This document shows, piece after piece, positions 44,847-59,629 of a stretch of 64,000 nucleotides of DNA (position 1 is its first letter; every line of letters starts with the position of its first letter). The translations under genes were made by a program, and so were the position numbers. The notes under the pieces were generated by a model. The model did not search any database, was not told the DNA's origin, and saw only the letters and a list, made by a program, of their open reading frames with translations. Source of the DNA: an uncultured Chloroflexia bacterium (lineage in GTDB: Bacteria > Chloroflexota > Dehalococcoidia > UBA2979); assembly GCA_963728205.1 (NCBI GenBank), contig CAVSIV010000004.1:32001-96000 (forward strand), read 5' to 3'.

Positions 44847-46049
44847 ATGACCGAGACGGCTCCCCGCGCGACCGGCTTCGCGCCCGCCACGATCGAGGCG
44901 CGCATCCGCGCCTTCGAGTCGTTCGGCATCCACCGCACCGGCTGGGAGGGCGACGACCGCACGAGCACGTGGCTGCGCGACGAGCTGCGCGCCGCCGGCG
45001 TCGACGCCGAGCTCGAGCGGTTCGACTTCCCCCGCGTCGAGGTGCGGCGCGCCCGCGTCTCCTGGTCCGACGGCGGCGCCGACGGCCTGCCGATGTACGA
45101 CGGCGGCTTCACCGACGCCGGCGGCATCGACGGCGAGCTGTGCGCCGAGGACGACGCCGACGTCTTCGGCAAGATCGTCGTCGCGACGTCCGGCCTGAGC
45201 GGCGACCGCACCTGGAGCGCACCCGGCGCGGACGCGCGCTACGACGAGCTCGTCGCTCAGGGCGCGGTCGGGCTGGTGGTGCCGTGCGGGGACCCCGACG
45301 GCAATATCGTCGTGCGCAACGCCGAGCGCATCCTGCGGCCGTTCAAGCTGCCCGTGCTGCAGGTCGCGCCGCGCGACGTGCGCGACCTGGCGGGCGCGCT
45401 GGTGGTCGGCACCGAGGGGGTGCTCGAGATCGACGGCGAGCGGCTGCGCTCGCGGGCCACGAACGTAGTCGCGACGCTGCCGGGGACGGACCCGGACGCG
45501 CGACCGGTGGGCGTGATGACGCCGAAGTCGGGGTGGTTCACCTGCGCGGCAGAGCGCGGGGGCGGCATCGCGATCTGGCTCGCGCTCGCCGAGGCGCTGG
45601 CGGCGATGCCGGCGCGGCGGCGGACCGTCCACCTGGTCGCCTCGGCCGGCCACGAGCTGCACCACCTGGGGCTGCTCGACTACTTCAAGCGCCGGCCGGA
45701 CGCCGCGCCGGGCGCGGCGGCGTGGCTGCACCTCGGCGCGTCGATTGGGGCGCGCGAGCCGGCGGCGCGCATGGGCGCGAGCGGCGACGCGCTGCACGCG
45801 CTCGCCACCGGCGCGCTGGAGCGCGCCGGCGCGGGCCCCTACGAGCCGCTGCCGGCGGGCGCGCCGGGGGGCGGCGAGGCGCGCGAGATCCACGAGCGCG
45901 GCGGCCGCTTCGTCACGTTCCTGGGCGGCCACCGCTACTTCCACTCGCCGAGCGACACCGTCGAGCGCGCAGTCGACGCCGAGAGCGTCGCGCGCTGGGG
46001 CGCCGCCGCGCGGGAGATCGTCGAGGGCATGCTGGCGCTGCCCGACTGA
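44847..46049 (+). CDS. M28/PA-like Zn-peptidase-fold protein
   Basis: GIHRTG..GD, NVVATLPG, ERGGG, GHEL, FHSPSD; GAGGAGG RBS. Confidence 0.6.
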   Translation: MTETAPRATGFAPATIEARIRAFESFGIHRTGWEGDDRTSTWLRDELRAAGVDAELERFDFPRVEVRRARVSWSDGGADGLPMYDGGFTDAGGIDGELCAEDDADVFGKIVVATSGLSGDRTWSAPGADARYDELVAQGAVGLVVPCGDPDGNIVVRNAERILRPFKLPVLQVAPRDVRDLAGALVVGTEGVLEIDGERLRSRATNVVATLPGTDPDARPVGVMTPKSGWFTCAAERGGGIAIWLALAEALAAMPARRRTVHLVASAGHELHHLGLLDYFKRRPDAAPGAAAWLHLGASIGAREPAARMGASGDALHALATGALERAGAGPYEPLPAGAPGGGEAREIHERGGRFVTFLGGHRYFHSPSDTVERAVDAESVARWGAAAREIVEGMLALPD

Positions 46050-46154
46050 GGGCGCGGCGCACCCGCGGGGCGCGGAACGCGCAAGCGTTTCCGACCATTC
46101 GGCAGGCAACCGATCTGTTCGGCAGGCAATCGTTCCCGTCCTGAGGAGGCATCC

Positions 46155-47128
46155 GTGAGCAGCGTCCAGACCATCCGCGGGCAGATCGACTCCTCGGCGC
46201 TGGGAAAGACGCTCTCCCACGAGCACCTCACCAACGGCGTGAGTGGCATGGAGCGCATCCCCGGCCTGTTCGACCGCGACGAGATGGTCGACCGCTGCGT
46301 CGAGGCGCTGGAGCGCGTGCACCGCTCCGGCATCGACAGCGTGATCGACCTCACGCCGTTCGACCTCGGCCGCCAGGTGTGGCTCTTCGAGCGCGTCGCG
46401 GAGCGCTCGCCCGTGAACGTGGTCTGCGCGACGGGCGTCTACCGCTGGGTGCCCTCCATCTACTTCGGGTGGGACGAGGACGAGATCGCCGCGCACTGGT
46501 CGCGCGAGATCCAGGACGGCATCGAGGGGACGTCGGTGCGCGCCGGCATCATCAAGCTGGCCTGGGACTTCGAGTACCGGCTGAACGACGGCAACCCGCG
46601 CTTCACGCCGCGCGGCGATGCTCGAGAAGACCGCCCGCGCCGCCGCCCGCACGGCGAAGGCGACGGGCGTGCCGATCTCGTGCCACACACGCGCCGTCGA
46701 CGAGCTCGGCACACCGCTGCTCGACATCTTCGAGGACGAGGGGCTGGACCTGCGCGCGGTCACGATTGGTCACTCGAACGATACGCAGGACCTCACGTAC
46801 CTGAAGGCGCTTGCCGAGCGCGGGTGCCGTCGTTGGGCTCGACCGCTTCTTCTCGCGCGAGGACGACTACGTCGCGCAGCGCTCCGGCATCGCGCTCGCG
46901 CTGATCCAGGCGGGCTTCGCCGAGCAGGTCTGCCTCGGCCACGACGCCACGCCCGCCGGCCTCTGGGGCCGGTGGCGCGAGGAGCGCAACCCGGAGTGCT
47001 GGTGCCTCGTCCCCGACTACGAGGTCCCGTGGCTGCGCGCCAACGGCGCGACCGACGACGACGTCGACGCCGTGCTGCGCCGCTCGATCCGGTCGACGTT
47101 CGAAGCCGCGGCGGCGATGGCGGGCTGA
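46155..47128 (+). pseudogene. Phosphotriesterase family protein with two +1 frameshifts (about 46612 and 46826), probably sequence errors
   Basis: TLSHEH, D.TPFDLGR, RAGIIK; PISCHT, IGHSND; GLDR, LGHD, spread over three frames. Confidence 0.85.
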
Positions 47129-47451
47129 CGCCAGCCACGGCGAGCAGGGCGGCGTGAGCCCCCGGTTTCCGGCGCCCCATCCCATCGCGGGCGACCGACC
47201 GCCTCGCCCCGACGCCCGCGCGTGAGGGACCCTGTGGCCTCGTGGCCCCGCTTCGTGATCGGCCGCCGGAAACCGGCGGCTGACACCACCCGGCTCGCCC
47301 CATCCCACCCTTGCCCGGTTGCGCTAGCCTCGATTCGCCTCCGCCCCACCGCTAGGAGGCGCGACCGCCACCCCGGACCTGCTGGGCCGTCGTTGCCGGG
47401 CGCGCGGGCGGCGTGCGTATACTCCGGCTCGCATCGGACGGGGGGACGACG

Positions 47452-49200
<1,749 letters not shown>

Positions 49201-49299
49201 CGGGCCCGGCGCGCGGAACGCGCCAGCGTCCCGACGAGCCACGTAGGTACGGCGGCGCGCCCCGGCGGGCGCGCCGCTGTGTGACGGATGGGACGTGCG

Positions 49300-50448
49300 A
49301 TGCCGACCGACGCGAGCGACGAGATCCAGATCGACCGCGGCCTGAACGGCGTCTACTTCGACCGCAGCAACGTCTGCTTCATCGACGGTCGCGAGGGCCG
49401 GCTGCTCTACCGCGGCTACAACATCCACGACCTCGCCGAGCGGTCGACCTCCGAGGAGACCGCCTACCTCCTGCTCCACGGCGAGTTGCCCACGCGCGAG
49501 CAGCTCACGGCGTTCGACGCCGAGCTGAAGGCGGCCCGCGCCATCCCGGCGCCGGTGCTCGACATCATTCGGGCGGTGAAGGACGCGCACCCGATGGAGG
49601 TGCTGCGCACCGCCGTTTCCGCGCTCGGCGCGTTCGACCCGGAGGTCGCCGACAACTCCATGGAGGCGACGCGCCGCAAGGGCGTGCGCCTGTCCGCGCA
49701 GGTGCCGATGCTGATCGCTGCCCACCACCGCATTCGCTCCGGCGAGGAGCCGGTTGCCCCGCGCGACGACCTCGGCCAGGCCGCGAACTTCCTCTACTGC
49801 CTCAAGGGCGAGGCCCCCTCCGCGGACGCCGCGAGCCTGATGGACACCGACTTCATCCTCCACGCCGAGCACGGCTCGAACGCCTCCGCCTTCACCGCGC
49901 GCGTCGTCGCCGGCACCGCGGCCAACCTGCACGCGGCGGTCACCGCCGCCGTCGCCGCGCTGTCCGGGCCCGCGCACGGCGGCGCGGCCGAGAACGTGAT
50001 GCGCATGGCGCAGGAGATCGGCGAGCCGGAGCGCGCGCAGGCGTACGTCGAGAACCTGCGCAAGAACCGCCAGCCCGTGATGGGCTTCGGCCACCGCGTC
50101 TACCGCGCGGAGGACCCGCGCGCCCGCCACATGCGCGACGGCGTGAAGCGCCTCTCCGAGGAGATGGGCCAGCCGAAGTGGTACGCCATCCTGGAAGCGG
50201 TGGTGGAGGCGATGCGCCCGTACGCGCGGCTCGGCGTGAACGTGAACGTCGACTTCTACGCCGGCGTCGTCTACTACCTCCACGGCATCCCGGAGGATCT
50301 CTTCGTCCCGATTTTCGCCATCGGCCGCGTCCCGGGCTGGTCGGTGCAGGTGCTCGAGCAGTTCGAGCACAACATCCTGATCCGGCCGCTCACCCAGTAC
50401 ACCGGTCCCGACGAGCGTCCCTACGCGCCGATCGAGCGGCGGGGTTAA
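49300..50448 (+). CDS. Citrate/2-methylcitrate synthase (short type)
   Basis: LHAEH..NAS, GPAHGGA, MGFGHRVY..DPR, NVDFY. Confidence 0.93.
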   Translation: MPTDASDEIQIDRGLNGVYFDRSNVCFIDGREGRLLYRGYNIHDLAERSTSEETAYLLLHGELPTREQLTAFDAELKAARAIPAPVLDIIRAVKDAHPMEVLRTAVSALGAFDPEVADNSMEATRRKGVRLSAQVPMLIAAHHRIRSGEEPVAPRDDLGQAANFLYCLKGEAPSADAASLMDTDFILHAEHGSNASAFTARVVAGTAANLHAAVTAAVAALSGPAHGGAAENVMRMAQEIGEPERAQAYVENLRKNRQPVMGFGHRVYRAEDPRARHMRDGVKRLSEEMGQPKWYAILEAVVEAMRPYARLGVNVNVDFYAGVVYYLHGIPEDLFVPIFAIGRVPGWSVQVLEQFEHNILIRPLTQYTGPDERPYAPIERRG

Positions 50449-50537
50449 ATGACGTCCCTGCACGTGCCGGCGGCCGAGCTGTCGCGCCACCCGTCGCCGC
50501 CGGCGCGCGGCCGCAGCGGCCCCACGAGCGTGTAGCG

Positions 50538-51164
50538 GTGCCGCTCCTGCCGGCCTTCCGCGGCGCCGCCGTCGCCCGCGGGCACCTTCCCGACGACACG
50601 CCCGTCACGGCCGCCGCCGCCTTCGCGCTCGTGCGCGACATGCCCTACGAGCGCGCGTCGTCGCGCGACCCTGCCGTCACCGTGGACGAGTGGCGCGGAA
50701 CCTGCTCCGGCAAGCACTACCTGCTGCGCGCGTTGTTCGAGGAGCTGGGCGTCCCGACGGTCCTGCTCGCATGCACGCACGCCTTCACGCTCGAGAACGC
50801 CCCGTGGGCGCCGCCCGACCTCCGCGCGATCCTCGAGGGCGGCCCCGTGCCCGACGTGCACAACTTCCTGCGCATCCAGCCCTTCCCCGGGACGGAGCGC
50901 GCCGATGAGTGGACCACCGTCGACGCCACCTGGCCGCTGGCGGCGGCGAGCCTGGGCCTGCCGGTGAACGAGCGCTTCGAGCTCGGTCGCGACCAGCGTG
51001 TGGCCTGTGACCCGATCGAGGTCTTTCACGTCCCGGACGACATCGACCCGCAGGAACTCAAGGAGCGACTGCTGGAGATCCATGTGGGGGACCAGGGCGA
51101 CCGGCGCGAGCGCTTCCTCGCCGGGATGATGCGCTGGCTGGCGGCGGAGCTAGCGGCGCGCTGA
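50538..51164 (+). CDS. Transglutaminase-like hypothetical protein
   Basis: Candidate Cys-His-Asp triad GTCSGKH, VHNF, VDATW; start uncertain. Confidence 0.65.
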   Translation: MPLLPAFRGAAVARGHLPDDTPVTAAAAFALVRDMPYERASSRDPAVTVDEWRGTCSGKHYLLRALFEELGVPTVLLACTHAFTLENAPWAPPDLRAILEGGPVPDVHNFLRIQPFPGTERADEWTTVDATWPLAAASLGLPVNERFELGRDQRVACDPIEVFHVPDDIDPQELKERLLEIHVGDQGDRRERFLAGMMRWLAAELAAR

Positions 51165-51211
51165 GACGCGGTCCGCTGCATTCAAGCGCGAATGGGCGTT
51201 AGCATGCGCCC

Positions 51212-51514
51212 GTGCAATCCCAGTCGTTTCGCCAGTCGCTCGTACTCTCCATGCTCTTCACCGGCGTGTGGGGCGTCGTGGGCTACATCTGGGGCGGCCA
51301 GGACCTCCTGGCGACGCTGCTCCAGCTGCCGCTCTTCTTCGCGATCATCCTGTTGACGATGCGCGGAACGAACCGCATCACGAACATGCTGATGGGGCGG
51401 TTCGGCCCGAAGCCGAAGCCGCCGCCCCCGCCGCTGGAGCCGACCACGGACCGCCCCGAGCACGTCCAGCGCCGGCGCCGGTCGCGGCGCCGCAGGAGCG
51501 GCCGCAACGCCTGA
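51212..51514 (+). CDS. Small membrane protein with a Pro-rich then Arg-rich tail
   Basis: Two hydrophobic segments; TAGCAT hexamer 6 nt before GTG. Confidence 0.7.
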   Translation: MQSQSFRQSLVLSMLFTGVWGVVGYIWGGQDLLATLLQLPLFFAIILLTMRGTNRITNMLMGRFGPKPKPPPPPLEPTTDRPEHVQRRRRSRRRRSGRNA

Positions 51515-51539
51515 CGCGCCGTCCCCGGCGCACCGCCCG

Positions 51540-51585
51540 AAAACGAAGCGGCCCGACGATCAGCCTGATCGTCGGGCCGCTTCGT
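51540..51585 (-). terminator. Intrinsic terminator (probably bidirectional)
   Basis: 20-bp perfect stem ACGAAGCGGCCCGACGATCA/TGATCGTCGGGCCGCTTCGT with TTTT on the minus strand. Confidence 0.85.
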
Positions 51586-51604
51586 ACCTTTGCCGTCTAG
51601 CGGA

Positions 51605-51643
51605 CTAGGTCCACTCGATACCGGCAGTCCACTTCGCGCGCAT
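51605..51643 (-). CDS. Candidate 12-aa peptide MRAKWTAGIEWT
   Basis: ATG..TAG, SD AAGGGA 6 nt upstream, own near-consensus promoter and downstream terminator; an in-frame TGA just upstream prevents extension. Confidence 0.55.
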   Translation of the reverse strand: MRAKWTAGIEWT

Positions 51644-51685
51644 CGCGAATCCCTTCGCTCAGCACCGGCCCTCCGTGGCCGTCAA

Positions 51686-51715
51686 AATCTATGTGGAGTT
51701 AAGAATTCATGTCAA
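51686..51715 (-). promoter_or_regulatory. Sigma70-type promoter TTGACA-18 nt-TAGATT
   Basis: Perfect -35 (51715-51710) and near-consensus -10 (51691-51686) in an AT-rich patch. Confidence 0.7.
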
Positions 51716-51776
51716 TCCGCTGGATGACGTAAGGCCCAGCAGAACGGCGACCCGAGCGTGAGAGGAACGCTGCGAT

Positions 51777-54368
51777 TCAAGAGGCAGCCCGAAGGCCACC
51801 CGAACGTTCGCGAACATATCCTTCGATCACGTCGGCCGGCTGTGGTCGCGAGAAGTAGAAGCCCTGTGCGGTCGCGCACCCGATATCCGACAGGATCTGG
51901 ACCTGCTCGGGGCGCTCGATGCCCTCCGCCACGACCTTGAGCTCCAGCGCGCGCGCCACGTTCACGACCGCGCGGACGATGTTCGCCTCGCGCTCGTCGT
52001 GATCCACGTCGGTGACGAAAGAGCGGTCGACCTTGAGCACGTCGGCCGGCAGGCGGCGTAGGTAGTTCAGCGACGAGTAGCCGGTCCCGAAGTCGTCGAT
52101 TGCGATCTCGACCCCGAGTCCCTTCAGCTCGAAGAAGACCTTCCGCGCGAGCGTGACATCGCGCATCAGCACGCTTTCGGTGATCTCGATGCGGAGCAGC
52201 TCCGGACGCAGATTCGCGTCGCGCAGCGTCTTGGCGACACGCCACGTCAGGTCCGGCTCCATGAACTCCTTCGCAGAGAGATTCACGGCCATCGTGAAGT
52301 GACCGAGGGCGGGGATCTTCTTCTGCCACTCGCGCGCCTGGCGACAGGCCTCAGCGAGGACCCACTGGCCGATGGGCACGATCTCGCCCGTCTCCTCGGC
52401 GAGCGGGATGAAGTCGTTCGGGGGGACCAGGCCACGCGTCGGGTGCTCCCAGCGCACGAGCGCCTCGAACCCCACCACCTGGAGCGTCTCGAGATCCAGC
52501 TCGGGCTGGTAGAACACCCGCAGCTGCCCCTCCTTGACCGCCTGCCGCAGGTCGGCCTCCAGCTCGAAGCGCTTCATCGACGAGGCGTCGATCGCATCGT
52601 CGAAGACCACGTGCCGCGCGCGGCCCTCTTCCTTCGCGCGGAACACGGCGACGTCCGCGCGACGCACGAGGTCCCGCGAGTCATTCTCGCCAGGCGTGCT
52701 CAGTGCGACGCCAATGCTCGCGGTCACCACGGCGCTGTGCACCCCAAACTCCAGCGGCTGCGAGAACGCCTGGAGCAGCTTGCGCGCCATCAGGTCGACG
52801 TCGAGGGGCGAGTGGAGGTCTTCCAGAAGGATCACGAACTCGTCGCCGCCGAGACGCGCGACGGTGTCATCGGGACGCAGCACCTCGGTGATTCGCCGGG
52901 CGGCCGTCACAAGCAGATCGTCGCCAGCTGCATGGCCAAGGCTGTCGTTCACCACCTTGAAGCGGTCGAGGTCGATGAAGAGTACCGCCACCTGCGCGCC
53001 GCGCCGCGCTGCGCCCGAGAGCGCATGCGCGAGGCGGTCGAGGAACAGCGCGCGGTTCGGGAGCTGGGTCAGCGGGTCGTGGAATGCCTGGTGCCGGAGC
53101 TGGTCCTCGAGCGCCTTTCGGTCGGTCACGTCGTGCGCGTTCACGACGATGCCATGGACGGCGTCGTCCTCGAGCAGGTTCTGCACGATTGCCGTGTAGT
53201 CGCGCATGGTGCCGTCGCGCAGCGTGAGGCGAAGGTCCATCGTGGCCTGCAAGTCCGGATTCGCGAGGACCTCGGCGAGGACGCTTGTCACCTGCGGCAG
53301 CTCCTCTGGCCGCGCGAGCGCGAGGAAGTCGCGCTCGGCCTCACCCTCGAATGTGCGGCGCTCGCCGTTGGGACCAGGACTCAGGTACTGGATCGAAGCG
53401 TCCGCATCGAGGACGGCGATGAAGCCGGGAGCGTTCTGGACGAGCGAGCGGAACCGCTGCTCGCTGCGACCGAGCGCACGGTTGGCCTCCTGGAGACGCT
53501 CGACACCAGCCCGCGCGCGGCTCGTGTACTGACGCGACGCCAGCGCCAGCATGGCGACGGGCATCGCGAAGATCGCCACGCCAACGAATCCAAGCTCGAC
53601 GAAAGAGATGGCGCTCGCATAGGCCGCGAGACCGAACGCCCCATAATGCGGCGCGAGCCAGCGGAACTTCTCGTCCCACACCGGGTATGGTCCGCGCCCC
53701 GTGCTAATCGACACCGCCAGCGCGACGAGCCAGGAGTTGACCAGGAAGGCCGTCTCCGCGGAGAGAAGCACGACGGGCAGATCGCGCAGGATCCGGCTCG
53801 CGGACGGACCACCGGTGATCGCGTAGAACATCGCGAGCCCGACCATCGCCGAGAGCGGCACCAGGCAGGCGTTGAACACGTACTTGTACCAGGTGCGCCG
53901 CTCGTGAGCCGACGCAACCAGGATCGAGAGCACGGAGACCAGACCGGCCACGCCCGGGCCGACCACGACCCCCATCGCGAAGACGGGGACGAACGCGAGC
54001 GTGAGCCGGCTGCCGCCGAAGAGGTCCGTCTCCCAGTTCTCTAGACCGGCGATCAGCACGGCCAGAAACAGGATGGACGTCCAGCTCGGGCGGGTGACCG
54101 TCGCGACCGCCAGCGGCCCGAGCAGCGTCGCCCAGATCAGCAGCGCCGTGGCGCCGAAGACGCCCACCAGGTAGACGCCGAGCACGGCCCCCGCGCGCGG
54201 GCGCACGCGTGACGCCGGAGCGTCGGACGTCGCGCGCCGGCCGGCGATTCCGGTCCCGGCGCGAAACGCATAGCGGAGTCGTCGACCAGTCGTTGCCACG
54301 GCGTCGGCCTCTCGGCCCCACCCCTCTCGGTTCCTTCTCCCGATCACTATCGACTCGCCATACGTCAT
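51777..54368 (-). CDS. Membrane sensor (MASE-like)-PAS-GGDEF-EAL diguanylate cyclase/phosphodiesterase
   Basis: About 7-8 TM helices, RFRSLVQN PAS, HDPLTQLPNR, RLGGDEF, EALVRW, DDFGTGYSS; true start may be GTG 54206. Confidence 0.93.
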   Translation of the reverse strand: MTYGESIVIGRRNREGWGREADAVATTGRRLRYAFRAGTGIAGRRATSDAPASRVRPRAGAVLGVYLVGVFGATALLIWATLLGPLAVATVTRPSWTSILFLAVLIAGLENWETDLFGGSRLTLAFVPVFAMGVVVGPGVAGLVSVLSILVASAHERRTWYKYVFNACLVPLSAMVGLAMFYAITGGPSASRILRDLPVVLLSAETAFLVNSWLVALAVSISTGRGPYPVWDEKFRWLAPHYGAFGLAAYASAISFVELGFVGVAIFAMPVAMLALASRQYTSRARAGVERLQEANRALGRSEQRFRSLVQNAPGFIAVLDADASIQYLSPGPNGERRTFEGEAERDFLALARPEELPQVTSVLAEVLANPDLQATMDLRLTLRDGTMRDYTAIVQNLLEDDAVHGIVVNAHDVTDRKALEDQLRHQAFHDPLTQLPNRALFLDRLAHALSGAARRGAQVAVLFIDLDRFKVVNDSLGHAAGDDLLVTAARRITEVLRPDDTVARLGGDEFVILLEDLHSPLDVDLMARKLLQAFSQPLEFGVHSAVVTASIGVALSTPGENDSRDLVRRADVAVFRAKEEGRARHVVFDDAIDASSMKRFELEADLRQAVKEGQLRVFYQPELDLETLQVVGFEALVRWEHPTRGLVPPNDFIPLAEETGEIVPIGQWVLAEACRQAREWQKKIPALGHFTMAVNLSAKEFMEPDLTWRVAKTLRDANLRPELLRIEITESVLMRDVTLARKVFFELKGLGVEIAIDDFGTGYSSLNYLRRLPADVLKVDRSFVTDVDHDEREANIVRAVVNVARALELKVVAEGIERPEQVQILSDIGCATAQGFYFSRPQPADVIEGYVRERSGGLRAAS

Positions 54369-54541
54369 CCGTAGAAGCGGTTGCCCCGGGAAGGACGCGG
54401 CGGTCCCACCCGAACCGAGAACGGCCCGAATCAGCGGCTGTCATAAGTCAGTCTGCTGCCGTACACAGCGGCGTCGTGCGGTCCCACCGGGGGATGCGTA
54501 CGTGATGCGCGGACGGTGCCCGGAGGTGCCGGCTCGGACTG

Positions 54542-55525
54542 CTACGGCATCGCCAGCACGAGCTTGCCGAAGTTCTCGTTCGCCTCCATCGCGCGGTGCG
54601 CGTCGGCGACCTCGGCCAGTGGAAACACGCGGTCCACGATCGGGCGCACGGCCCCGGAAGCGAACAGCGGTACCACCCGCGCGACGAACTCCTGCGTGAG
54701 CTGCGCCTTCTGCTCCAGCGGCCGCGCACGCAGCAGCGTGCCGTGCACCTGCAGCCGCTTACCCATCAGCGCGCCGAGGTTCACCTCGAGCTTCGCGCCG
54801 CCCATCGTGCCGACGATGATCATTCGCCCCTGCTGACCGAGCGCCGCCAGGTTCTGCTCCCAGTACGGTGCGCCGATCACGTCGAGCACCACCTGCACGC
54901 CGGCGCCGGCGGTCTCGCGCGCGACGACCTCCGCGAAGTCCTGCTCGCGGTAGTTGATGCCGACATCGAGGCCCAGCGCCCTGGCGGCGTCGAGCTTCGA
55001 GGCCGAGCCGGCGGTGCCGAACGTCCGGCAGCTCGCCGCGTGCGCCAGCTGGATCGCGGCCGTGCCCACGCCCGACCCGGCGGCGTGCACCAGCACGGAC
55101 TCGCCCGTCGCGAGCCCGCACTGCCGGAAGAGCGCGTCGTACGCGGTAAGGAAGACCTCCGGAATCGCCGCCGCCTCGTCGAAGTCGATGTTCGCCGGCA
55201 CCGGCATCAGCATTCGCTCGTGCACCACGACCTTCGACGCGTAGCCGCCCCCGGCGAGCAGCGCCATCACGCGGTCCCCCGGCTCCCAGCCGGTCACGCG
55301 CTCGCCCACCGCCTCAACGACACCGGCCATCTCCAGCCCCGGGATGTCGTCGCGCGTGCCCTTCGGGCCGGGGTACCGCCCGCGCCGTTGCAGGAGGTCG
55401 GCGCGGTTGAGCGCGGTCGCCCGCACCGCCACCCGCACCTCCTCCGCGCCGAACGCGGGGTCGTCGACCTCCTGGATGGCGAAGACGTCGGGGTCTCCGG
55501 GCGTCGTGATCACGGCTGCGCGCAT
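54542..55525 (-). CDS. NAD(P)H-quinone oxidoreductase, PIG3 family
   Basis: NRADLLQRRGRYP, PGLE, PEVFLTA, HAAGSGVG, GKLVL. Confidence 0.92.
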   Translation of the reverse strand: MRAAVITTPGDPDVFAIQEVDDPAFGAEEVRVAVRATALNRADLLQRRGRYPGPKGTRDDIPGLEMAGVVEAVGERVTGWEPGDRVMALLAGGGYASKVVVHERMLMPVPANIDFDEAAAIPEVFLTAYDALFRQCGLATGESVLVHAAGSGVGTAAIQLAHAASCRTFGTAGSASKLDAARALGLDVGINYREQDFAEVVARETAGAGVQVVLDVIGAPYWEQNLAALGQQGRMIIVGTMGGAKLEVNLGALMGKRLQVHGTLLRARPLEQKAQLTQEFVARVVPLFASGAVRPIVDRVFPLAEVADAHRAMEANENFGKLVLAMP

Positions 55526-55630
55526 GGGGCCTCCTCCGGCCGGATGGTACCCCGCCTCGCCGCTGCGCCGAACGCCGGTGCGGTCGATGGGGCTCCTATA
55601 CTCGACGCGGTCGTCCCCTGGAGGTGCCCG

Positions 55631-57028
55631 ATGCCCGACGCCGCCCCCGGCCCCACCCGCGCGCTCGCCAACTTCGTCGCCTCCGCCGGCGTCCCCGCCG
55701 CCGTCCGCGACGTCACGCGGCGCTACCTGCTCGACTGGCTCGGCTCCGCCGTCGCCGGCGGCGAGTTGCGCCCGCCCGCCATCGCGCGCGCCGTCGTCGC
55801 CGACCTCGGCGGCCACCCGCAGGCGACCGTGCTCGCCACCGGCGAGCGCACCTCCGCGCCCCTCGCCGCCTTTGCCAACGCCGCCGCCGCTCACGTGCTC
55901 GAGATGGACGACCTCGACCGCGAGTCGATCTCGCACCCCGCCGCGCCCATCGTCGCGGCCGCGCTCGCGGTCGGCGAGCGTGAGGGCGCCGACGGCGCGG
56001 CGCTGCTCGACGCCATCGCCGTCGGCTACGAGGTGAGCATCCGCGTCGGCGAGGCGCTCGGCCCGCGCCACTACGAGCACTGGCACACCACCGGCACCGC
56101 CGGCACCCTCGGCGCGGCCGCCGCCGCCGCGCGGCTCGCCGGCCTCGACGCGGCGACCACCCTCCAGGCGCTCGGCAGCGCCGGCACGATGACCGCCGGC
56201 CTGTGGGAGTTCCTCGCCGACGGTGCGATGTCGAAGCAGCTCCACCCGGCGAAGGCCGCGCACGACGGCATCCTCGCGGCGCTCCTCGCCGCCCGCGGGT
56301 TCTCCGCCGCCACGCACATCCTCGAGGGCCCGAAGGGCGTGCTCGCCGCGATGAGCACCGACGCCCGCCCCGAGCGGCTCACGCACGGCCTGGCGGTCGA
56401 CATGAGCGACTGGCGCATCGCAAAGGTGTCGTTCAAGGTCCACGCCTCGTGCCGGCACACCCATTCCGCGGTCGACGCGGCGCTGGCCCTGCGCCGGCAG
56501 CACGCCCTGGCGCCGGACGCGATCGCCCGCGTCGACGTGCGCGTCTACTCGCAGGCGCTCGGGCTGCTCGACGGCATGGAGCCGACCACGCCGTACGCCG
56601 CGAAATTCTCGCTGCCGTTCTGCGTCGCCGCCGCGCTCGTCCATGGCGACCTCGCTCCCCAGCGCTTCACAGACGACTCCATCACCGAAGCCGGGACGCT
56701 CGCCCTCACCGAGCGGGTCCACTTCACGACCGACCCCGCGCTCGACGCGCTCTACCCGACCGCGTGGCCGAGCATCGTCACCGTCACCCTCGCGGACGGC
56801 ACGCAGCTCGAGGCGCGCGTCGACCACCCCGCGGGCGATCCCGAGAGCGGCATCACCGAGGCAGACATCGCCGCGAAGTTCCGCACGCTGACCGACGCGC
56901 TGCTCGGCGACGCGGCGCAGCGCCTCGCGCACGACGTGCTCGCCGCGCAGCCGCCGCCGGCCCCCGGGGCGATCGTCGCCGCCGTGACGGCGGCCACCAC
57001 CGGCCATCGGCTCGTCTCCGCAGGCTGA
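55631..57028 (+). CDS. MmgE/PrpD family protein
   Basis: HVLEMDD..H.AAP, WHTTGT, K.LH, FKVHASCRHTH, AKFS. Confidence 0.92.
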   Translation: MPDAAPGPTRALANFVASAGVPAAVRDVTRRYLLDWLGSAVAGGELRPPAIARAVVADLGGHPQATVLATGERTSAPLAAFANAAAAHVLEMDDLDRESISHPAAPIVAAALAVGEREGADGAALLDAIAVGYEVSIRVGEALGPRHYEHWHTTGTAGTLGAAAAAARLAGLDAATTLQALGSAGTMTAGLWEFLADGAMSKQLHPAKAAHDGILAALLAARGFSAATHILEGPKGVLAAMSTDARPERLTHGLAVDMSDWRIAKVSFKVHASCRHTHSAVDAALALRRQHALAPDAIARVDVRVYSQALGLLDGMEPTTPYAAKFSLPFCVAAALVHGDLAPQRFTDDSITEAGTLALTERVHFTTDPALDALYPTAWPSIVTVTLADGTQLEARVDHPAGDPESGITEADIAAKFRTLTDALLGDAAQRLAHDVLAAQPPPAPGAIVAAVTAATTGHRLVSAG

Positions 57029-57124
57029 TCCGCGCGTCCGACCCCCGTTCCCCGTGCGTTCGTGCCGTGACGCGGCAAGGGTGCGTGCTACGATCCGCGT
57101 CGATTCACGGAGCGAAGAGGGGGA

Positions 57125-59629
57125 GTGGTGCCCGGACTGAGAGACTCGCACCGACTGACCGTCGACCAGGTCACCGCACCGCTCGATCCCGCGTCCCTCT
57201 CCTTCCAGCGCACCGATGAGCTGCCGCCGATTGAGGCCGTCTTCGGCCAGGAGCGGGCCGTGCGCGCAATCGAGTTCGCGCTCGGCATGGAGGCGCCGGG
57301 CTACAACCTCTTCGCCTCCGGACCGGATGGCATCGGCAAGTCGACCATCGTCGAGTCGTTCCTGCGCCGCCGCGCCGCGCAGATGCCGGCGCCGCAGGAC
57401 TGGATCTACGTCCGCAACTTCCACGACACCGACCGGCCAATCGGCATCGCGATGCCGCCGGGACGCGGACGCGCGTTCGCGGAGGCGGTCGCCAACGCCG
57501 TGCAGGCCGCCGGCCGCGAGATCCGCGCCGCCTTCGACTCCGACGACTACGCCCGCCAGCAGCAGGCACTCGGCTCCGAGCTCGAGGAGGAGCGCTCGCG
57601 GCAGCTGCAGCACCTCCAGGACCAGGCGCGCGAGCTCGGCTTCTTCCTTCAGCTCACGCCGCAGGGCATCAACTCGGCGCCGCTGATCGACGGCCAGCCA
57701 GCCACGCAGGAGCAGTTCGATGCGCTCCCCGAGGAAGAGCGCAACCGCGTGCAGGAGCAGGCCAAGCAGCTCGAGTCGCTCGTGCAGGACACGATGCTCA
57801 AGCTCCGCGCCACCGAGCGCGGCGCCCGCGAGCGCTCGACGCAGCAGGACGAGGACGTCGCGGCGGCGGCGATCCACGACATCTTCGAGGCGCTGCTCGC
57901 CGAGTACGGCGACAATCCGGAGATCCGCGCCTTCGTCGAGGCCGTGCGCGACGACATCCGCAAGGAGCGCGACCGCTTCCGCCAGGAAGGGCAGCCGACG
58001 GGGCTCCCGGCGATGCTCGGCGGCCAGCAGGGCCCGCCGGTGCGGCGCTACGAGGTCAACGTCGCGATCAGCAACGACCCGTCGGACGGCGCGCCGGTGA
58101 TCCGCGAGCGCCACCCGACGTTCAACAACCTCCTCGGCCATGTCGAGTACCAGGGCCAGTTCGGCGCGGTGACGACCGACCACACGATGATCAAGGCCGG
58201 CTCGCTGGCGCGGGCGAATGGCGGCTTCATCGTGCTGCGACTGCGCGACCTCCTGCAGCAGCCCGTGGCGCTGGACGCGCTGAAGCGCGCACTGGACGCC
58301 GGGGAGATCGCGATCGAGAACGTCGCCGAGGCCTATGGCCTCGCGCCGACGGTCGGGCTGCGGCCGGCGCCGATCCCGCTGCACGTGAAGGTCGTGATCG
58401 TCGGAGACGCGCAGCTGTACTCGCTCCTCTACCGCTACGACCCCGACTTCCGCGAGCTGTTCCGCGTCAAGGCCGACTTCGAGGTCGACGTGCCGCGCAC
58501 GCCCGAGAACATCCGCGGGCTCGCCGGCTTCATCGCGAGTCACTGCGAGCGTCACCACCTGCGATGCTTCAGCGCCGCAGCCGTCGCGCGGCTCGTCGAG
58601 CACTCGTCCCGCACGGTCGAGGACCGCGAGCGGCTGTCGGCGAACCTCGGCGGGTTCCTCGACACGATTCGCCAGGCCGACTACTGGGCGTCCGTGGACG
58701 GCCAGGAGACGGTCGAGGTGCGTCACGTCGAGCGGGCGCTCGAAGAGCGCATCTACCGGTCGGCGCTGGTGCGCGACCGCATCCAGGAGGCGATCGAGAA
58801 GGACGAGATCCACGTCGAGGTCGAGGGCGAGCGCGTCGGCCAAATCAACGCGCTGGCGGTGTACGACCTGGGCGACTTCGAGTTCGGCCGGCCCTCGCGG
58901 ATCACGGGCGTGACGTCGGCCGGGCACGGCACCATCGTCATGGTCGACCGCGAGAGCGACCTGTCCGGTCGCATCCATACCAAGGGCTTCTTCATCCTGC
59001 GCGGGTTCCTCACGGAGCGCTTCGGCCAGGTCCGCGGCGGCCAGCTGCACGCCAGCCTCACCTTCGAGCAGCTCTACGGCGACATCGACGGCGACTCCGC
59101 TTCCTCGACCGAGCTCTACGTCCTGCTGTCCGCGCTGGCCGACGTCCCGATCGACCAGGGCGTCGCCGTCACGGGCTCGGTCGACCAGCTCGGCCGGGTG
59201 CAGCCGATCGGCGGCGCGATCGCGAAGATCGAGGGCTTCTATGAGGTCTGCCGCCAGCACGGCCTGAACGGCAAGCAGGGCGTGATGATCCCGGCCACGA
59301 ACGTGCGGCACGTGATCCTGCGACCGGAGATCGCGCAGGCCGTCGCGTCCGGGCAGTTCCACGTGTGGGCGGTGTCGACCATCGAAGAGGGCATCGAGAT
59401 CCTGACCGGCATGCCCGCCGGTGTGCGGGGCGACGACGGTGCGTACCCCGAGGGGACGGTCTACCGGCGCGTCGAGGACCGCCTCGCCGCGTTCGCGCTG
59501 GAGATCCGCGAGCAGGCGGCGCCGCCGGGCGCGGCGCCGGGCATGCGCGTCGTGATGCCGCAACAGCAGCAGCCGAACCCGCCGGGCATCCCGCCGCAGC
59601 CCCCGCCCGAGCCGCCGGTCCACGTGTGA
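57125..59629 (+). CDS. Lon protease family protein (LonC-like AAA plus S16 domain)
   Basis: GQERA, Walker A GPDGIGKS, GQINAL, FEQ.Y..DGDSAS, GG..AKIEGF (Ser-Lys dyad). Confidence 0.9.
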   Translation: MVPGLRDSHRLTVDQVTAPLDPASLSFQRTDELPPIEAVFGQERAVRAIEFALGMEAPGYNLFASGPDGIGKSTIVESFLRRRAAQMPAPQDWIYVRNFHDTDRPIGIAMPPGRGRAFAEAVANAVQAAGREIRAAFDSDDYARQQQALGSELEEERSRQLQHLQDQARELGFFLQLTPQGINSAPLIDGQPATQEQFDALPEEERNRVQEQAKQLESLVQDTMLKLRATERGARERSTQQDEDVAAAAIHDIFEALLAEYGDNPEIRAFVEAVRDDIRKERDRFRQEGQPTGLPAMLGGQQGPPVRRYEVNVAISNDPSDGAPVIRERHPTFNNLLGHVEYQGQFGAVTTDHTMIKAGSLARANGGFIVLRLRDLLQQPVALDALKRALDAGEIAIENVAEAYGLAPTVGLRPAPIPLHVKVVIVGDAQLYSLLYRYDPDFRELFRVKADFEVDVPRTPENIRGLAGFIASHCERHHLRCFSAAAVARLVEHSSRTVEDRERLSANLGGFLDTIRQADYWASVDGQETVEVRHVERALEERIYRSALVRDRIQEAIEKDEIHVEVEGERVGQINALAVYDLGDFEFGRPSRITGVTSAGHGTIVMVDRESDLSGRIHTKGFFILRGFLTERFGQVRGGQLHASLTFEQLYGDIDGDSASSTELYVLLSALADVPIDQGVAVTGSVDQLGRVQPIGGAIAKIEGFYEVCRQHGLNGKQGVMIPATNVRHVILRPEIAQAVASGQFHVWAVSTIEEGIEILTGMPAGVRGDDGAYPEGTVYRRVEDRLAAFALEIREQAAPPGAAPGMRVVMPQQQQPNPPGIPPQPPPEPPVHV

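What the first reader, a model, noticed from the sequence alone, without database searches (positions are those of the whole stretch)
51540..54368. Stand-alone 12-aa Trp peptide gene beside a membrane-sensor c-di-GMP enzyme: candidate peptide signal/receptor system
Seen: just after the stop of the TM-PAS-GGDEF-EAL gene, on the same strand, lie TTGACA-18-TAGATT (the closest consensus promoter I noticed in the window), SD AAGGGA, the ORF 51643-51605 MRAKWTAGIEWT and a 20-bp terminator. The unit contains nothing else. The peptide has two xxWT half-repeats (AKWT, IEWT), and its ATG sits in the loop of a TTCGCG/CGCGAA hairpin. The next gene is convergent, so this is not an attenuator leader. Established: GGDEF/EAL domains make and break c-di-GMP, and ligands of most MASE-type sensors are unknown. 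Inference: the peptide is the ligand or modulator of the adjacent 7-8 TM sensor, forming a quorum-like c-di-GMP switch. From memory, unverified, similar sensors often neighbour tiny ORFs or protease tails with G/SxxW motifs. The peptide has no signal sequence, so export is unexplained; an sRNA is the alternative.
Basis: partly seen in the sequence, partly recalled or inferred. Interest (0 to 1): 0.85.

Follow-up and report, generated by a model that had tools for sequence, protein, structure and literature searches.

The report
Trp-tailed micro-peptide gene beside MASE9 sensor
A 12-codon gene with its own promoter and terminator sits behind a membrane c-di-GMP enzyme, and related tiny genes whose peptides end in tryptophan are kept beside related sensors in several bacterial families, which makes the peptide a candidate signal or modulator for a sensor domain that has no known ligand.

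Summary
On the minus strand, after the stop of a MASE9-GGDEF-EAL gene, lie TTGACA-18-TAGATT, an SD, the ORF 51643-51605 (MRAKWTAGIEWT) and a 20-bp hairpin.

Three further genomes of the genus hold four more variants of the unit. Start codon, frame and the W-[D/T]-TAG end are kept. Lengths are 39/36/33/33/30 nt and GC3 is 49/52.

The decisive result is that the unit travels with the sensor gene. Orthologous sensors in three other genera of the family are followed by MRKIRGIAW (two genomes) or by long forms with a signal-peptide-like head (…AGSITW, …AGNISWV).

In a second family, 27 of 28 testable MASE9-HD-GYP genes have a convergent 6-8-codon gene x-F-R-[V/I]-x-W. Arg is invariant there but written with four codons. 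That gene lies behind a near-consensus promoter and the operator of a neighbouring TetR gene. Three more families carry long or short forms.

Best reading: a new family of Trp-tailed micro-peptides functionally paired with MASE9 c-di-GMP enzymes. Direct binding, export and the direction of the effect are inferred, not shown. No RNA data were available and the complex prediction gave no verdict.

Interest is high.

The parts
51777..54368 (-). MASE9-(PAS)-GGDEF-EAL membrane enzyme, 863 aa. GGDEF, EAL and DDFGTGYSS motifs are present.
   Evidence: ORF and translation. Pfam EAL 1.1e-72, GGDEF 4.4e-47, MASE9 31.9 bits against cut-off 24.3. Orthologues found.
51686..51715 (-). Sigma70-type promoter TTGACA-18-TAGATT of the peptide unit.
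   Evidence: the only site in 12 kb, 10 of 12 consensus matches. TTGACA-17-TAnnnT is kept in G002 (two copies) and G003, and TTGACA-17-TAGATT in G012 and G090, with a similar TTGACA-type site read by eye in G031 and G016.
51667..51680 (-). 5' palindrome/hairpin GGCC-ACGGAG-GGCC at the likely transcript start. It could be an RNA stem-loop with a CANGGANG-type loop, or a protein operator.
   Evidence: GCC-N6-GGC is kept in all 5 genus variants. In genus g10 the position holds GCCAT-N4-ATGGC with no GGA.
51645..51658 (-). Hairpin GCGAA-GGGA-TTCGC that carries the Shine-Dalgarno sequence.
   Evidence: Invariant apart from A/G in 5 of 5 genus variants. Related GTGAAAGGATTCAC in G014 and AGCGAAGGGAGTCGCT in G016.
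51605..51643 (-). Micro-ORF of 12 codons plus TAG, MRAKWTAGIEWT.
   Evidence: In-frame homologues MRWAVGGTRWD, MRTERGAAWD, MSVKRGTSWT, MRSSSPGWD. GC3 is 49/52.
51539..51585 (-). 20-bp GC-rich hairpin plus GUUUUC. Terminator of the unit and, read on the other strand, probably also of the convergent 100-aa gene.
   Evidence: fold; coordinates. One search shows different but equivalent hairpins in the other complete variants; the G002b copy ends at its contig end.
51212..51514 (+). Convergent 100-aa membrane protein with no Pfam family. It is a neighbour only within this genus and is not part of the conserved pair.
   Evidence: In G016, G012, G031 and G090 its partner gene p208 lies on a different contig from the sensor.

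Best explanation
The stretch 51539-51715 (minus strand) is an independent, strongly promoted micro-gene. Its roughly 135-nt mRNA is translated into the 12-residue peptide MRAKWTAGIEWT.

The peptide is a shortened member of a previously undescribed family of Trp-tailed small peptides of 6-33 aa. Their C-terminus reads [G/R]-[V/I/T/A]-x-W, followed by 0-1 residue and the stop. The genes are kept next to MASE9-type polytopic membrane domains of c-di-GMP enzymes (GGDEF-EAL in this family, HD-GYP elsewhere) in at least five families of one class of Chloroflexota.

Most likely mechanism, which is inferred: the hydrophobic and aromatic C-terminal tail acts on the MASE9 membrane domain of the neighbouring enzyme and shifts its balance of c-di-GMP synthesis and breakdown.
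- Long forms reach the membrane or the outside through a Sec-type signal or anchor segment.
- Short forms such as this one, made from a near-consensus promoter, reach the membrane from the cytoplasmic side or through an unknown exporter.

Shown: the unit, its conservation, frame and codon evidence, and its linkage to the sensor. Inferred: translation in vivo, binding, export, and the sign of the effect.

My odds: about 0.8 that this is a real conserved peptide gene functionally tied to the sensor; about 0.45 that the peptide acts directly on MASE9.
For: 1. Conservation within the genus. Five variants come from four genomes.
- The start is ATG four times and GTG once.
- ORF lengths are 39/36/33/33/30 nt, so every length difference is a multiple of 3.
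- All end W-[D/T]-TAG.
- GC3 is 49/52, like the neighbouring genes (0.87-0.96).
- In the unalignable middle codons GC3 is 29/32 against 44/64 at positions 1+2 (one-sided Fisher p = 0.014).

2. Linkage to the sensor rather than to the other flank.
- The same-strand unit follows the orthologous sensor in G016 (MRKKLWLVVSLAAAASALVPGIASAGSITW), in G012 and G031 (MRKIRGIAW, with CGT/CGC and TAG/TAA differences) and in G014 (MKIGLGIALGAAVAALPAVAAAGNISWV).
- In G016, G012 and G031 the genes that are convergent in the window lie on other contigs.

3. A second family (f53). Of 29 sensor loci examined, 28 were testable, and 27 of the 28 carry a convergent micro-ORF 90-334 nt from the MASE9-HD-GYP stop.
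- In the 26 short forms, Arg is 26/26 with four codons (CGC 21, CGA 2, CGG 2, CGT 1).
- Trp is 26/26.
- V/I is 24/26 with six codons.
- Ser is written both AGC and TCC/TCT.

4. Further families. Family f16 has 30-aa long forms …(M/A)LTISW in 6 loci. Families f49 and f74 have long or short forms.

5. Background.
- The strict pattern gives 4 hits in 8.25 million strand-bases of the own genome.
- The wide filter gives 1 hit in 87,060 nt of 26 unrelated loci.

6. The MASE9 domain has no known ligand. Its describers inferred that ligand binding occurs within the membrane (passages read).
Against: - There is no expression, ribosome or peptide evidence for any member.
- The window's peptide and the g10 and f53 forms have no signal sequence, and no exporter, protease or modifying enzyme is encoded nearby.
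- Residues other than the tail are barely conserved within the genus.
- Homology between the family-f1 and family-f53 peptides cannot be proven for sequences this short.
- About half of the more distant MASE9-like genes examined in the class show no such ORF within about 0.7-0.9 kb. In the two batches of 20 loci, 12 and 9-10 were positive.
- Fifteen loci from other classes gave only one weak candidate.
- Paralogous sensors in G002 and G003 have none.
- G001 keeps the unit although no orthologous sensor was found in it (genome 95% complete).
- In f53 and f16 a TetR gene is equally conserved in the cluster, so the peptide's partner could be something other than MASE9.
Confidence: 0.5

Rival explanations
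1. A regulatory micro-ORF or small RNA. What matters is the act of translating the ORF (for example ribosome pausing or arrest at …x-W-stop) or the RNA itself, not the free peptide. The roughly 135-nt transcript would then act in cis or in trans. One route is its 3' overlap with the convergent transcript. Another is read-through that is antisense to the sensor in families where the unit is convergent.
For: - Conservation is concentrated on the last 3-5 codons next to the stop and on the 5' UTR hairpins.
- The ORF body is free to vary and even to lose about 20 codons.
- A strong hairpin always follows.
- In f53 and f16 the unit converges on the sensor operon and shares its terminator.
Against: - No gene lies downstream on the same strand in the window's genus, in f53 or in f16, so there is nothing for an attenuator to control.
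- Orientation relative to the sensor differs between families (same strand in f1, convergent in f53 and f16), so no single cis mechanism fits all of them.
- Nothing is shared at RNA level between families except what encodes the peptide tail.
- Long forms keep a signal-peptide-like segment in four families, which an arrest peptide would not need.
- No Rfam family matches.
Confidence: 0.17
2. The peptide is real, but its partner is not the MASE9 domain. It could act on the TetR regulator as an inducer or co-repressor, on the GGDEF enzyme of the same cluster, or on an unlinked target. The sensor would then be only a co-regulated neighbour.
For: - In f53 the micro-ORF is transcribed divergently from a TetR gene. 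The palindrome ATACCGAC-NN-GTCGGTAT sits directly after a TTGACA-18-TATAAA promoter, and a separate GGDEF gene follows.
- In f16 the TetR gene follows the sensor and the same type of operator precedes the peptide gene.
Against: - In the window's family no TetR gene is near. None of the 10 TetR_N hits in the genome lies on the window's contig.
- The only partner common to f1, f16, f49, f53 and f74 is the MASE9-like domain, whose output domain varies (GGDEF-EAL or HD-GYP).
Confidence: 0.15
3. A CsrA-bound RNA. The two 5' stem-loops, GCC-ACGGAN-GGC and GCGA-A(A/G)GGAU-UCGC (the second covering the SD), would be CsrA sites like those of flagellin leaders. The RNA would then be a CsrA-repressed message or a small CsrA titrator.
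For: - The genome has flgL-fliW-csrA.
- Three of its four flagellin leaders show A(N)GGA hairpins plus an SD GAAGGAGG.
- The first loop fits CANGGANG in 5 of 5 genus variants.
- Two adjacent ANGGA loops, the second on the ribosome-binding site, is the design described for C. jejuni flaA (passages read).
- Two sites 10-63 nt apart can be bridged by one CsrA dimer (passage read).
Against: - Only 2 conserved GGA loops are present. Loosely defined tandem GGA hairpins occur 717 times in the genome.
- In genus g10 the first hairpin has a UCUU/UCAU loop and no GGA.
- The f53 and f16 units instead carry a TetR-type operator.
- csrA is present in 4 of 5 further genomes tested whatever the type of unit.
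- At best this is an extra layer of control in some genera, not the function of the unit.
Confidence: 0.06
4. A chance ORF in a conserved intergenic spacer, with no function.
For: The ORF is tiny and open frames are common at 73% G+C.
Against: - Frame, start and stop are kept through four length classes.
- The same kind of ORF is found in 27 of 28 testable loci of another family, with synonymous codon turnover.
- The genome-wide background is about 0.0005 per kb per strand.
Confidence: 0.03

Closest known systems
Peptide pheromone and polytopic membrane receptor gene pairs of Gram-positive bacteria (ComX-ComP, AgrD/AIP-AgrC, CSP-ComD). Recalled knowledge, not checked in a call.
   Same: - A small peptide gene lies next to the gene of a multi-pass membrane sensor.
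- The active part is a short C-terminal or internal piece, and in ComX it contains an essential Trp.
- The peptide sequence varies quickly between close relatives while the pairing is kept.
   Different: - The receptor output here is c-di-GMP turnover (GGDEF-EAL or HD-GYP), not a histidine kinase.
- The sensing domain is MASE9.
- No ComQ-, AgrB- or ABC-type maturation or export gene is nearby.
- Many members are only 6-12 codons long and have no leader at all.
Phr-type pro-peptides of Bacillus (Sec signal peptide plus a C-terminal pentapeptide). Recalled.
   Same: The long forms (for example MRKKLWLVVSLAAAASALVPGIASA|GSITW in G016 and MARLRMLLVAGALAAVAVVSTAA|PMLTISW in f16) look like a signal peptide followed by a 5-8-residue tail.
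   Different: - The partner is a membrane c-di-GMP enzyme, not a cytoplasmic Rap or RRNPP protein.
- The window's own form lacks the signal segment.
- The cleavage sites are guesses. No signal-peptide predictor was available.
Small membrane-protein modulators of sensors (MgrB or SafA with PhoQ). Recalled.
   Same: A small protein encoded separately that acts on the membrane part of a sensor. The long forms could be single-pass membrane partners.
   Different: Those proteins are 47-65 aa and act on histidine kinases. Here the conserved part is a 4-5-residue Trp tail, and the hydrophobic segment can be dispensed with.
MccA heptapeptide gene of microcin C, one of the smallest known genes. Recalled.
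   Same: A 7-codon stand-alone ORF beginning MR…, followed by a hairpin, and translated in its own right.
   Different: MccA ends in Asn and is followed on the same strand by mccB-E. Here the end is Trp(+1) and no such genes follow.
flaA/hag-type CsrA-controlled leaders (Dugar et al. 2016, PMC4894983, passages read).
   Same: Two adjacent stem-loops with ANGGA loops, the second over the ribosome-binding site, in an organism with FliW-CsrA.
   Different: The design is seen in only some genera of the family. The ORF behind it has 12 codons and is not a flagellin.

Membership tests
MASE9 sensor domain (PF20972) | Pfam model match above the gathering score on the N-terminal polytopic region. | tested here: met
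   31.9 bits against cut-off 24.3, residues 117-280. The f53 sensor scores 29.0 bits. The G016 orthologue scores 23.9 bits, just under the cut-off, and the f16 sensor has no hit at E<=0.001. These two are linked to the others only by tblastn or HMMER hits to the window's N-domain.
Active GGDEF-EAL enzyme | GG[DE]EF motif, EAL motif and the DDFGTGYSS metal-binding loop. | tested here: met
   RLGGDEFVILL, FEALVRW and DDFGTGYSSL can be read in the translation. Activity itself was not tested.
Intrinsic (Rho-independent) terminator | GC-rich stem-loop followed directly by a U tract. | tested here: inconclusive
   A 20-bp stem is present, but only 4 U follow, so the scan that asks for at least 5 T did not list it. 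The hairpins of the genus relatives have even poorer tails.
Trp-type transcription attenuator leader peptide | Leader ORF with regulatory codons, alternative antiterminator and terminator pairing, and a regulated gene downstream on the same strand. | tested here: not met
   The next gene is convergent. In f53 and f16 the unit runs into the 3' end of the sensor operon. Three of the 5 genus variants have a single Trp codon.
Sec-exported pro-peptide | Positively charged n-region, hydrophobic h-region of about 12-16 residues, and a small-residue c-region. | tested here: not met
   The window's 12-aa peptide has no h-region. Relatives in G016, G014, f16, f49 and f74, and one f53 genome, do have one, judged by eye. 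Only a weak Pfam signal-peptide-type match was found (E 0.13).
ComQXPA / Agr / RRNPP peptide signalling cassettes | A dedicated maturation or receptor partner (ComQ prenyltransferase, AgrB, or a TPR-type cytoplasmic receptor) encoded beside the peptide gene. | tested here: not met
   Pfam scans of the surrounding ORFs in 43-62 kb of the window show PrpD, a Lon-like protease, a methyltransferase, citrate synthase, an AMP-binding enzyme and peptidases. None of the cassette partners appears.
CsrB/RsmZ-type CsrA sponge RNA | Many (about 7-20) GGA motifs in hairpin loops. | tested here: not met
   Counting by eye on the sequences gives 2-4 A(N)GGA motifs per variant, of which 2 are conserved.
Any described RNA family (Rfam 15) | Covariance-model match at the gathering score. 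| tested here: not met
   0 matches in the whole window at gathering score. The best sub-threshold matches in 50500-52500 have E >= 0.25 and are implausible.
Any described protein family for the long-form peptides | Pfam or NCBIfam match. | tested here: not met
   Four long forms were scanned and nothing scored below E 0.07. The Atlas feature search gave best scores of 0.78, which is within noise.

The most novel reading that the evidence does not exclude
Trp-tailed micro-peptides, some encoded by genes of only 6-7 codons, are the long-sought ligands of the MASE9 membrane domain. They would form a peptide-controlled c-di-GMP switch: peptide gene, MASE9 enzyme, and in some families a TetR repressor. 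Long, Sec-exported forms would act as cell-to-cell signals. Repeatedly evolved leaderless forms would act cell-autonomously from within the membrane. This would be the first peptide-receptor pair that feeds directly into c-di-GMP turnover, and these would be among the smallest functional genes known.
Probability: 0.35. Interest if true: 0.9.

Novelty: new variant of a known kind. Interest (0 to 1): 0.8.

Why it matters
- Ligands of almost all MASE-type membrane sensor domains are unknown. A genetically linked peptide gives MASE9 a concrete candidate ligand that can be synthesised.
- It would connect peptide signalling directly to c-di-GMP, which is usually described as responding to small molecules, light, gases or two-component input.
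- The genes have 6-12 codons, so gene callers do not see them. Their strong conservation (27 of 28 testable loci in one family) shows how much regulatory coding capacity can hide in 'intergenic' DNA.
- Repeated loss of the signal-peptide segment with retention of the tail is an unusual evolutionary pattern. It constrains where the binding site can be.

Tried and rejected
1. Rfam, at gathering score on the whole window and in E-value mode on 2 kb: nothing credible.

2. BLAST of the intergenic DNA in 61 relatives found only the G001 copy.

3. A covariance model (R1) built from the 4 genus sequences was too genus-specific.
- It found the 5 genus copies only.
- All other hits had E >= 0.0027. The 10 I inspected lie in sequence that reads as coding.
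- It missed the units of the other genera, which I found later by following the sensor gene.

4. Pattern scans of public collections.
- Genome contigs: 36 stretches, of which 4 are true and all from the genus.
- Metagenome contigs: 5 stretches, of which 3 are true.

5. The idea that the unit belongs with the convergent p100/p208 genes was rejected. In 13 other-genus loci the DNA beyond p100 holds no such unit, and the unit travels with the sensor.

6. The idea of a CsrA sponge or CsrA-regulated RNA was downgraded. See the rival explanations.

7. A Pfam MASE9 search of 401 genomes of the phylum at E <= 1e-10 found 0. The threshold was too strict for this divergent domain, since the window's own protein scores only 1.6e-7. 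The result is uninformative.

8. Other classes of the phylum: 15 loci were examined and gave one weak candidate (MRRYSLTW). The few other filter hits are unconvincing.

9. Complex prediction with the G016 MASE9 domain (alignment of 9 rows) and the G016 30-aa peptide gave no verdict: scores 0.22 and 0.26 against a mark of 0.32. This is evidence neither for nor against binding.

10. The look-up of sequencing runs listed no RNA holder. It listed 3 rows, 2 of them DNA holders with small shares from one soil study. This says nothing about expression.

How the peptide family is annotated in protein databases therefore could not be checked.

12. Literature. Six searches were seen as listings. Passages of three papers were read. 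I found no description of a small ORF paired with MASE9 or HD-GYP genes. Figure S5 of the MASE9 preprint, which I could not see, may show gene neighbourhoods.

Full report
THE OBSERVATION

- The 863-aa gene 54368-51777 ends at 51777.
- TTGACA (51715-51710), 18 nt and TAGATT (51691-51686) follow.
- About 35 nt later comes the hairpin GCGAAGGGATTCGC, which holds the SD.
- One base further is the ATG at 51643. The ORF reads MRAKWTAGIEWT, with TAG ending at 51605.
- A 20-bp GC-rich hairpin at 51585-51545 is followed by GTTTTC.

The promoter scan of 46000-58000 returned this site alone (1 found; 0.3 +/- 0.5 in shuffles). The 145-nt RNA folds at -80.4 kcal/mol, z = -6.0. The terminator rule did not list the hairpin because only four T follow it.

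The large protein is MASE9 (31.9 bits, cut-off 24.3) + GGDEF + EAL, with intact GGDEF, EAL and DDFGTGYSS motifs. The next gene, a 100-aa membrane protein (51212-51514, +), is convergent. It is followed upstream by a 208-aa protein without a Pfam family and by a citrate synthase. No Rfam family matches.

WITHIN THE GENUS

The window lies in a 4.1-Mb, 73% G+C genome. Record titles of the same-genus matches name them as Chloroflexota MAGs.

The three other genomes of the genus contain the unit, and one contains it twice. Two public-collection scans added only copies of these.

The five variants share:
- TTGACA-17/18-TAnnnT, which is lost in G001 where an IS transposase end abuts the unit;
- a 5' palindrome GCC-N6-GGC;
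- the SD hairpin GCGAA(A/G)GGATTCGC;
- a start codon;
- the end TGG-GAC/ACC-TAG.

The ORFs read MRAKWTAGIEWT, (GTG)MRWAVGGTRWD, MRTERGAAWD, MSVKRGTSWT and MRSSSPGWD. Their lengths are 39, 36, 33, 33 and 30 nt, so every length change keeps the frame.

Third-position G+C is 49/52, as in the neighbouring genes (0.87-0.96). In the middle codons, which cannot be aligned, it is 29/32 against 44/64 at positions 1 and 2 (Fisher p = 0.014, not corrected for shared ancestry). No longer ORF is shared on either strand.

This already favours translation. But the body of the peptide is hardly conserved, and the association with the sensor could have been simple inheritance within one genus. EAL-gene synteny is seen for G000, G003, both G002 copies and L096. 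G001 has no orthologous sensor that I could find.

A DETOUR: CsrA

The two 5' stem-loops carry A(N)GGA in their loops. The first fits CANGGANG in all five variants.

The genome has flgL-fliW-csrA and four flagellin genes. Three of the four flagellin leaders show similar hairpins plus an SD. The design resembles the C. jejuni flaA leader (passages; binding rules).

The idea lost weight for three reasons.
- Loosely defined tandem GGA hairpins occur 717 times in the genome.
- The related units of genus g10 have no GGA in the first loop.
- csrA is present in most genomes whatever their type of unit.

I keep it as a possible extra layer of translational control in some genera.

THE DECISIVE STEP: FOLLOW THE SENSOR

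I searched the 99 genomes of the family with the N-terminal membrane domain (residues 50-310). It found orthologues in genera g10, g12 and g14, plus a weak 25%-identity hit in g21 and paralogues. I read the DNA behind their stop codons.

- G016 (g14): same strand. TTGACA promoter, hairpin GCC-AAGGAA-GGC, SD hairpin AGCGAAGGGAGTCGCT, then MRKKLWLVVSLAAAASALVPGIASAGSITW.
- G012 and G031 (g10): TTGACA-17-TAGATT in G012 and a similar promoter in G031, then MRKIRGIAW in both. The two differ by CGT/CGC and by TAG/TAA.
- G014 (g12): a deletion fuses the sensor, cut inside GGDEF, to the SD hairpin GTGAAAGGATTCAC and MKIGLGIALGAAVAALPAVAAAGNISWV.
- G090 (g10): the promoter remains, but about 75 nt including most of the ORF are gone, leaving CC-TGG-TAG. 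The sensor reads in two frames near residue 501. This is either co-decay or an assembly error.
- The paralogous sensors of G002 and G003 have no such ORF.

In G016, G012, G031 and G090 the p208 gene, which is convergent to the unit in the window, lies on another contig. The unit therefore stays with the sensor while the other flank changes.

The window's peptide aligns with the long form as MR-AK-W … AG-IEW-T against MRKKLW…AG-SITW. In other words it looks like a long form that has lost its hydrophobic core.

BEYOND THE FAMILY

In 401 genomes sampled from the class, 54 have a homologue of the N-domain at E <= 1e-12. Most are about 500-aa MASE9-HD-GYP proteins. I fetched two batches of 20 loci.

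First batch:
- 11 loci have a tiny ORF with a strong SD on the opposite strand just behind the sensor gene: MFRIQW, MFRINW, MVFRVGW, MYRVSW, MFRVMW, MTFRVTW, MFRVSW (twice), MTFRVQW, MTFRITW and MVQRVSWG.
- One more locus has a long form ending …LLWISWWWR.
- One locus had no downstream DNA.

Second batch:
- 6 loci of family f16 have a 30-aa long form: MARLRMLLVAGALAAVAVVSTAAPMLTISW and variants.
- One f74 locus has a 32-aa long form.
- Two loci have short forms, MKKFHWW and MTKTILW.
- One is doubtful.

A dedicated search of family f53 found the sensor in 31 of 36 genomes. I examined 29 loci; the thirtieth belongs to an unpublished genome and was left out. One of the 29 ends at the contig edge. 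Of the 28 testable loci:
- 24 were found by the regular expression;
- 2 more read MVQRATWG;
- 1 has the long form MKKLLWAAAGVAAAVLSGLGFRW;
- 1 has none.

Across the 26 short forms:
- Arg is invariant but written CGC (21), CGA (2), CGG (2) and CGT (1);
- Trp is invariant;
- V/I occupies 24 of 26 with six codons;
- Ser is written AGC as well as TCC/TCT;
- Phe is TTC or TTT;
- the stop is TAA 22 times and TAG 4 times.

That is the signature of selection on the amino acids, not on the RNA.

Each f53 unit has a near-consensus promoter (for example TTGACA-18-TATAAA). The palindrome ATACCGAC-NN-GTCGGTAT follows directly, and then a divergent TetR gene and a separate GGDEF gene. In f16 the TetR gene follows the sensor, and the same kind of operator precedes the convergent peptide gene. 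In the window's genome no TetR gene lies on the contig.

CONTROLS
- The strict description of the short form matches 4 places in the 8.25 million strand-bases of the window's genome. The unit is one of them. I inspected two of the other three, and both lie antisense inside coding sequence.
- The wide filter, which also takes long forms, gives 1 hit in 87,060 nt of 26 unrelated loci.
- Negative results stand beside this. About half of the distant MASE9-like loci of the class showed nothing within about 0.7-0.9 kb. Fifteen loci from other classes gave one weak candidate.

WHAT IT IS AND HOW IT PROBABLY WORKS

Shown:
- a conserved, separately promoted micro-gene;
- frame and codon evidence for translation;
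- a C-terminal motif [G/R]-[V/I/T/A]-x-W(+0-1) shared by long and short forms;
- persistent linkage to MASE9-type membrane domains through changes of orientation, of output domain (GGDEF-EAL or HD-GYP) and of the remaining neighbours.

Inferred:
- The peptide tail acts on the MASE9 domain and tunes c-di-GMP turnover.
- The long forms have the look of Sec signal peptides or single-pass anchors with the tail outside.
- Short forms arose repeatedly by loss of that segment, in f1 (g1, g10), f53, f16 and f49.
- This suggests the target site can also be reached from the cytoplasmic leaflet. That fits the published inference that MASE9 binds its ligand within the membrane.

No export, processing or modification genes accompany the window's unit.

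I put about 0.8 on 'real peptide gene functionally tied to the sensor' and about 0.45 on 'acts directly on MASE9'. The rivals are a translation- or RNA-level regulator, the TetR protein or another protein as partner, a CsrA-bound RNA, and chance. They are set out with their tests in the rival explanations.

COMPARISON WITH WHAT IS KNOWN

The closest known kinds are these (mostly recalled, see the Closest known systems section):
- peptide pheromone plus polytopic receptor pairs (ComX-ComP, AIP-AgrC);
- Phr-type pro-peptides;
- small membrane-protein modulators of sensors (MgrB-PhoQ).

This system differs in four ways.
- The receptor domain is MASE9.
- The output is c-di-GMP turnover.
- No maturation genes are present.
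- The genes are extremely small.

Neither Pfam, NCBIfam nor the Atlas knows the long forms. Six literature searches found no description. The only papers holding the word MASE9 are the preprint that defines the domain and one unrelated paper.

I therefore rate it a new variant of a known kind, with a substantial chance that it gives MASE9 its first candidate ligand.

LIMITS
- All genomes are uncultivated or unnamed, and no transcript or peptide data exist here.
- The structure-based test gave no verdict.
- Peptides this short cannot be proven homologous between families.
- My filters for long forms are hand-made.

Noticed in passing
Own genome outside the window: G000 C6:1479393-1482542 (L100) and C6:1386935-1398698 (L101-L104): A flgL-fliW-csrA cluster and four flagellin genes. 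Three of the four flagellin 5' UTRs (the fourth, at 1398288, differs) have a sigma28-like promoter (TAAG-N15-GCCGATGA), an A(N)GGA hairpin (for example CGAC-AGGAU-GUCG, which matches ACARGGAUGU) and the SD GAAGGAGG. This points to a Bacillus-type FliW-CsrA-flagellin circuit in a Chloroflexota genome.
   Followed up: partly
L002:1-140 / L095 (G001): The C-terminus of an IS3-type transposase (…YNTRRPHSS…) abuts the peptide unit. The -35 box is gone and the start is GTG. No orthologous sensor was found in this 95%-complete genome, so this may be a decaying copy.
   Followed up: partly
L128:1980-2460 minus strand (G014): A deletion joins the sensor gene, cut inside its GGDEF domain, directly to the SD hairpin and to the long-form peptide gene MKIGLGIALGAAVAALPAVAAAGNISWV. 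The peptide gene outlives its receptor's output domains.
   Followed up: partly
L127 (G090), about 200-290 nt after the sensor stop: The promoter TTGACA-17-TAGATT is kept, but about 75 nt with the 5' UTR and most of the micro-ORF are deleted. The sensor reads in two frames near residue 501. This is either joint decay or a long-read indel error.
   Followed up: no
L151-L180 (family f53) and L190-L199 (family f16), between the peptide gene and the TetR gene: A conserved palindrome, ATACCGAC-NN-GTCGGTAT (ATACCGGCCGGTCGGCAT in f16), lies directly after a near-consensus promoter. It is a likely TetR operator. In f53 the cluster is MASE9-HD-GYP, peptide, TetR, GGDEF.
   Followed up: partly
L007:2640-2679, L008:2650-2700, L056:150-190 (minus strand): One or two copies of the palindrome TTCCGGAA, in AT-rich DNA just upstream of the -35 box of the unit, in G002 and G003 but not in the window. 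This could be an UP element or a regulator site.
   Followed up: no
window 50538-51514 (+): A gene pair without a Pfam family: a 208-aa protein found in 60 of 99 family genomes and a 100-aa membrane protein with a basic, Pro-rich tail. The pair shares its terminator hairpin with the peptide unit, so the two transcripts probably overlap at their 3' ends.
   Followed up: partly
window 47413-50448 and 54596-59629: Genes suggesting a methylcitrate or propionate route (AMP-binding enzyme, citrate-synthase-type enzyme, PrpD) and a LonB/LonC-like protease flank the sensor locus.
   Followed up: no
L133, L135, L137 (families f58 and f60): Two MASE9-like genes stand in tandem, the second starting within a few bases of the first one's stop. 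No Trp-tailed ORF was seen there.
   Followed up: no
G000 C1:696400-704102 (L119, L121, L122): Three short (227-313 aa open frames) MASE9-like membrane proteins lie clustered within 8 kb, 29-31% identical to the sensor's N-domain. None has a Trp-tailed ORF nearby.
   Followed up: partly
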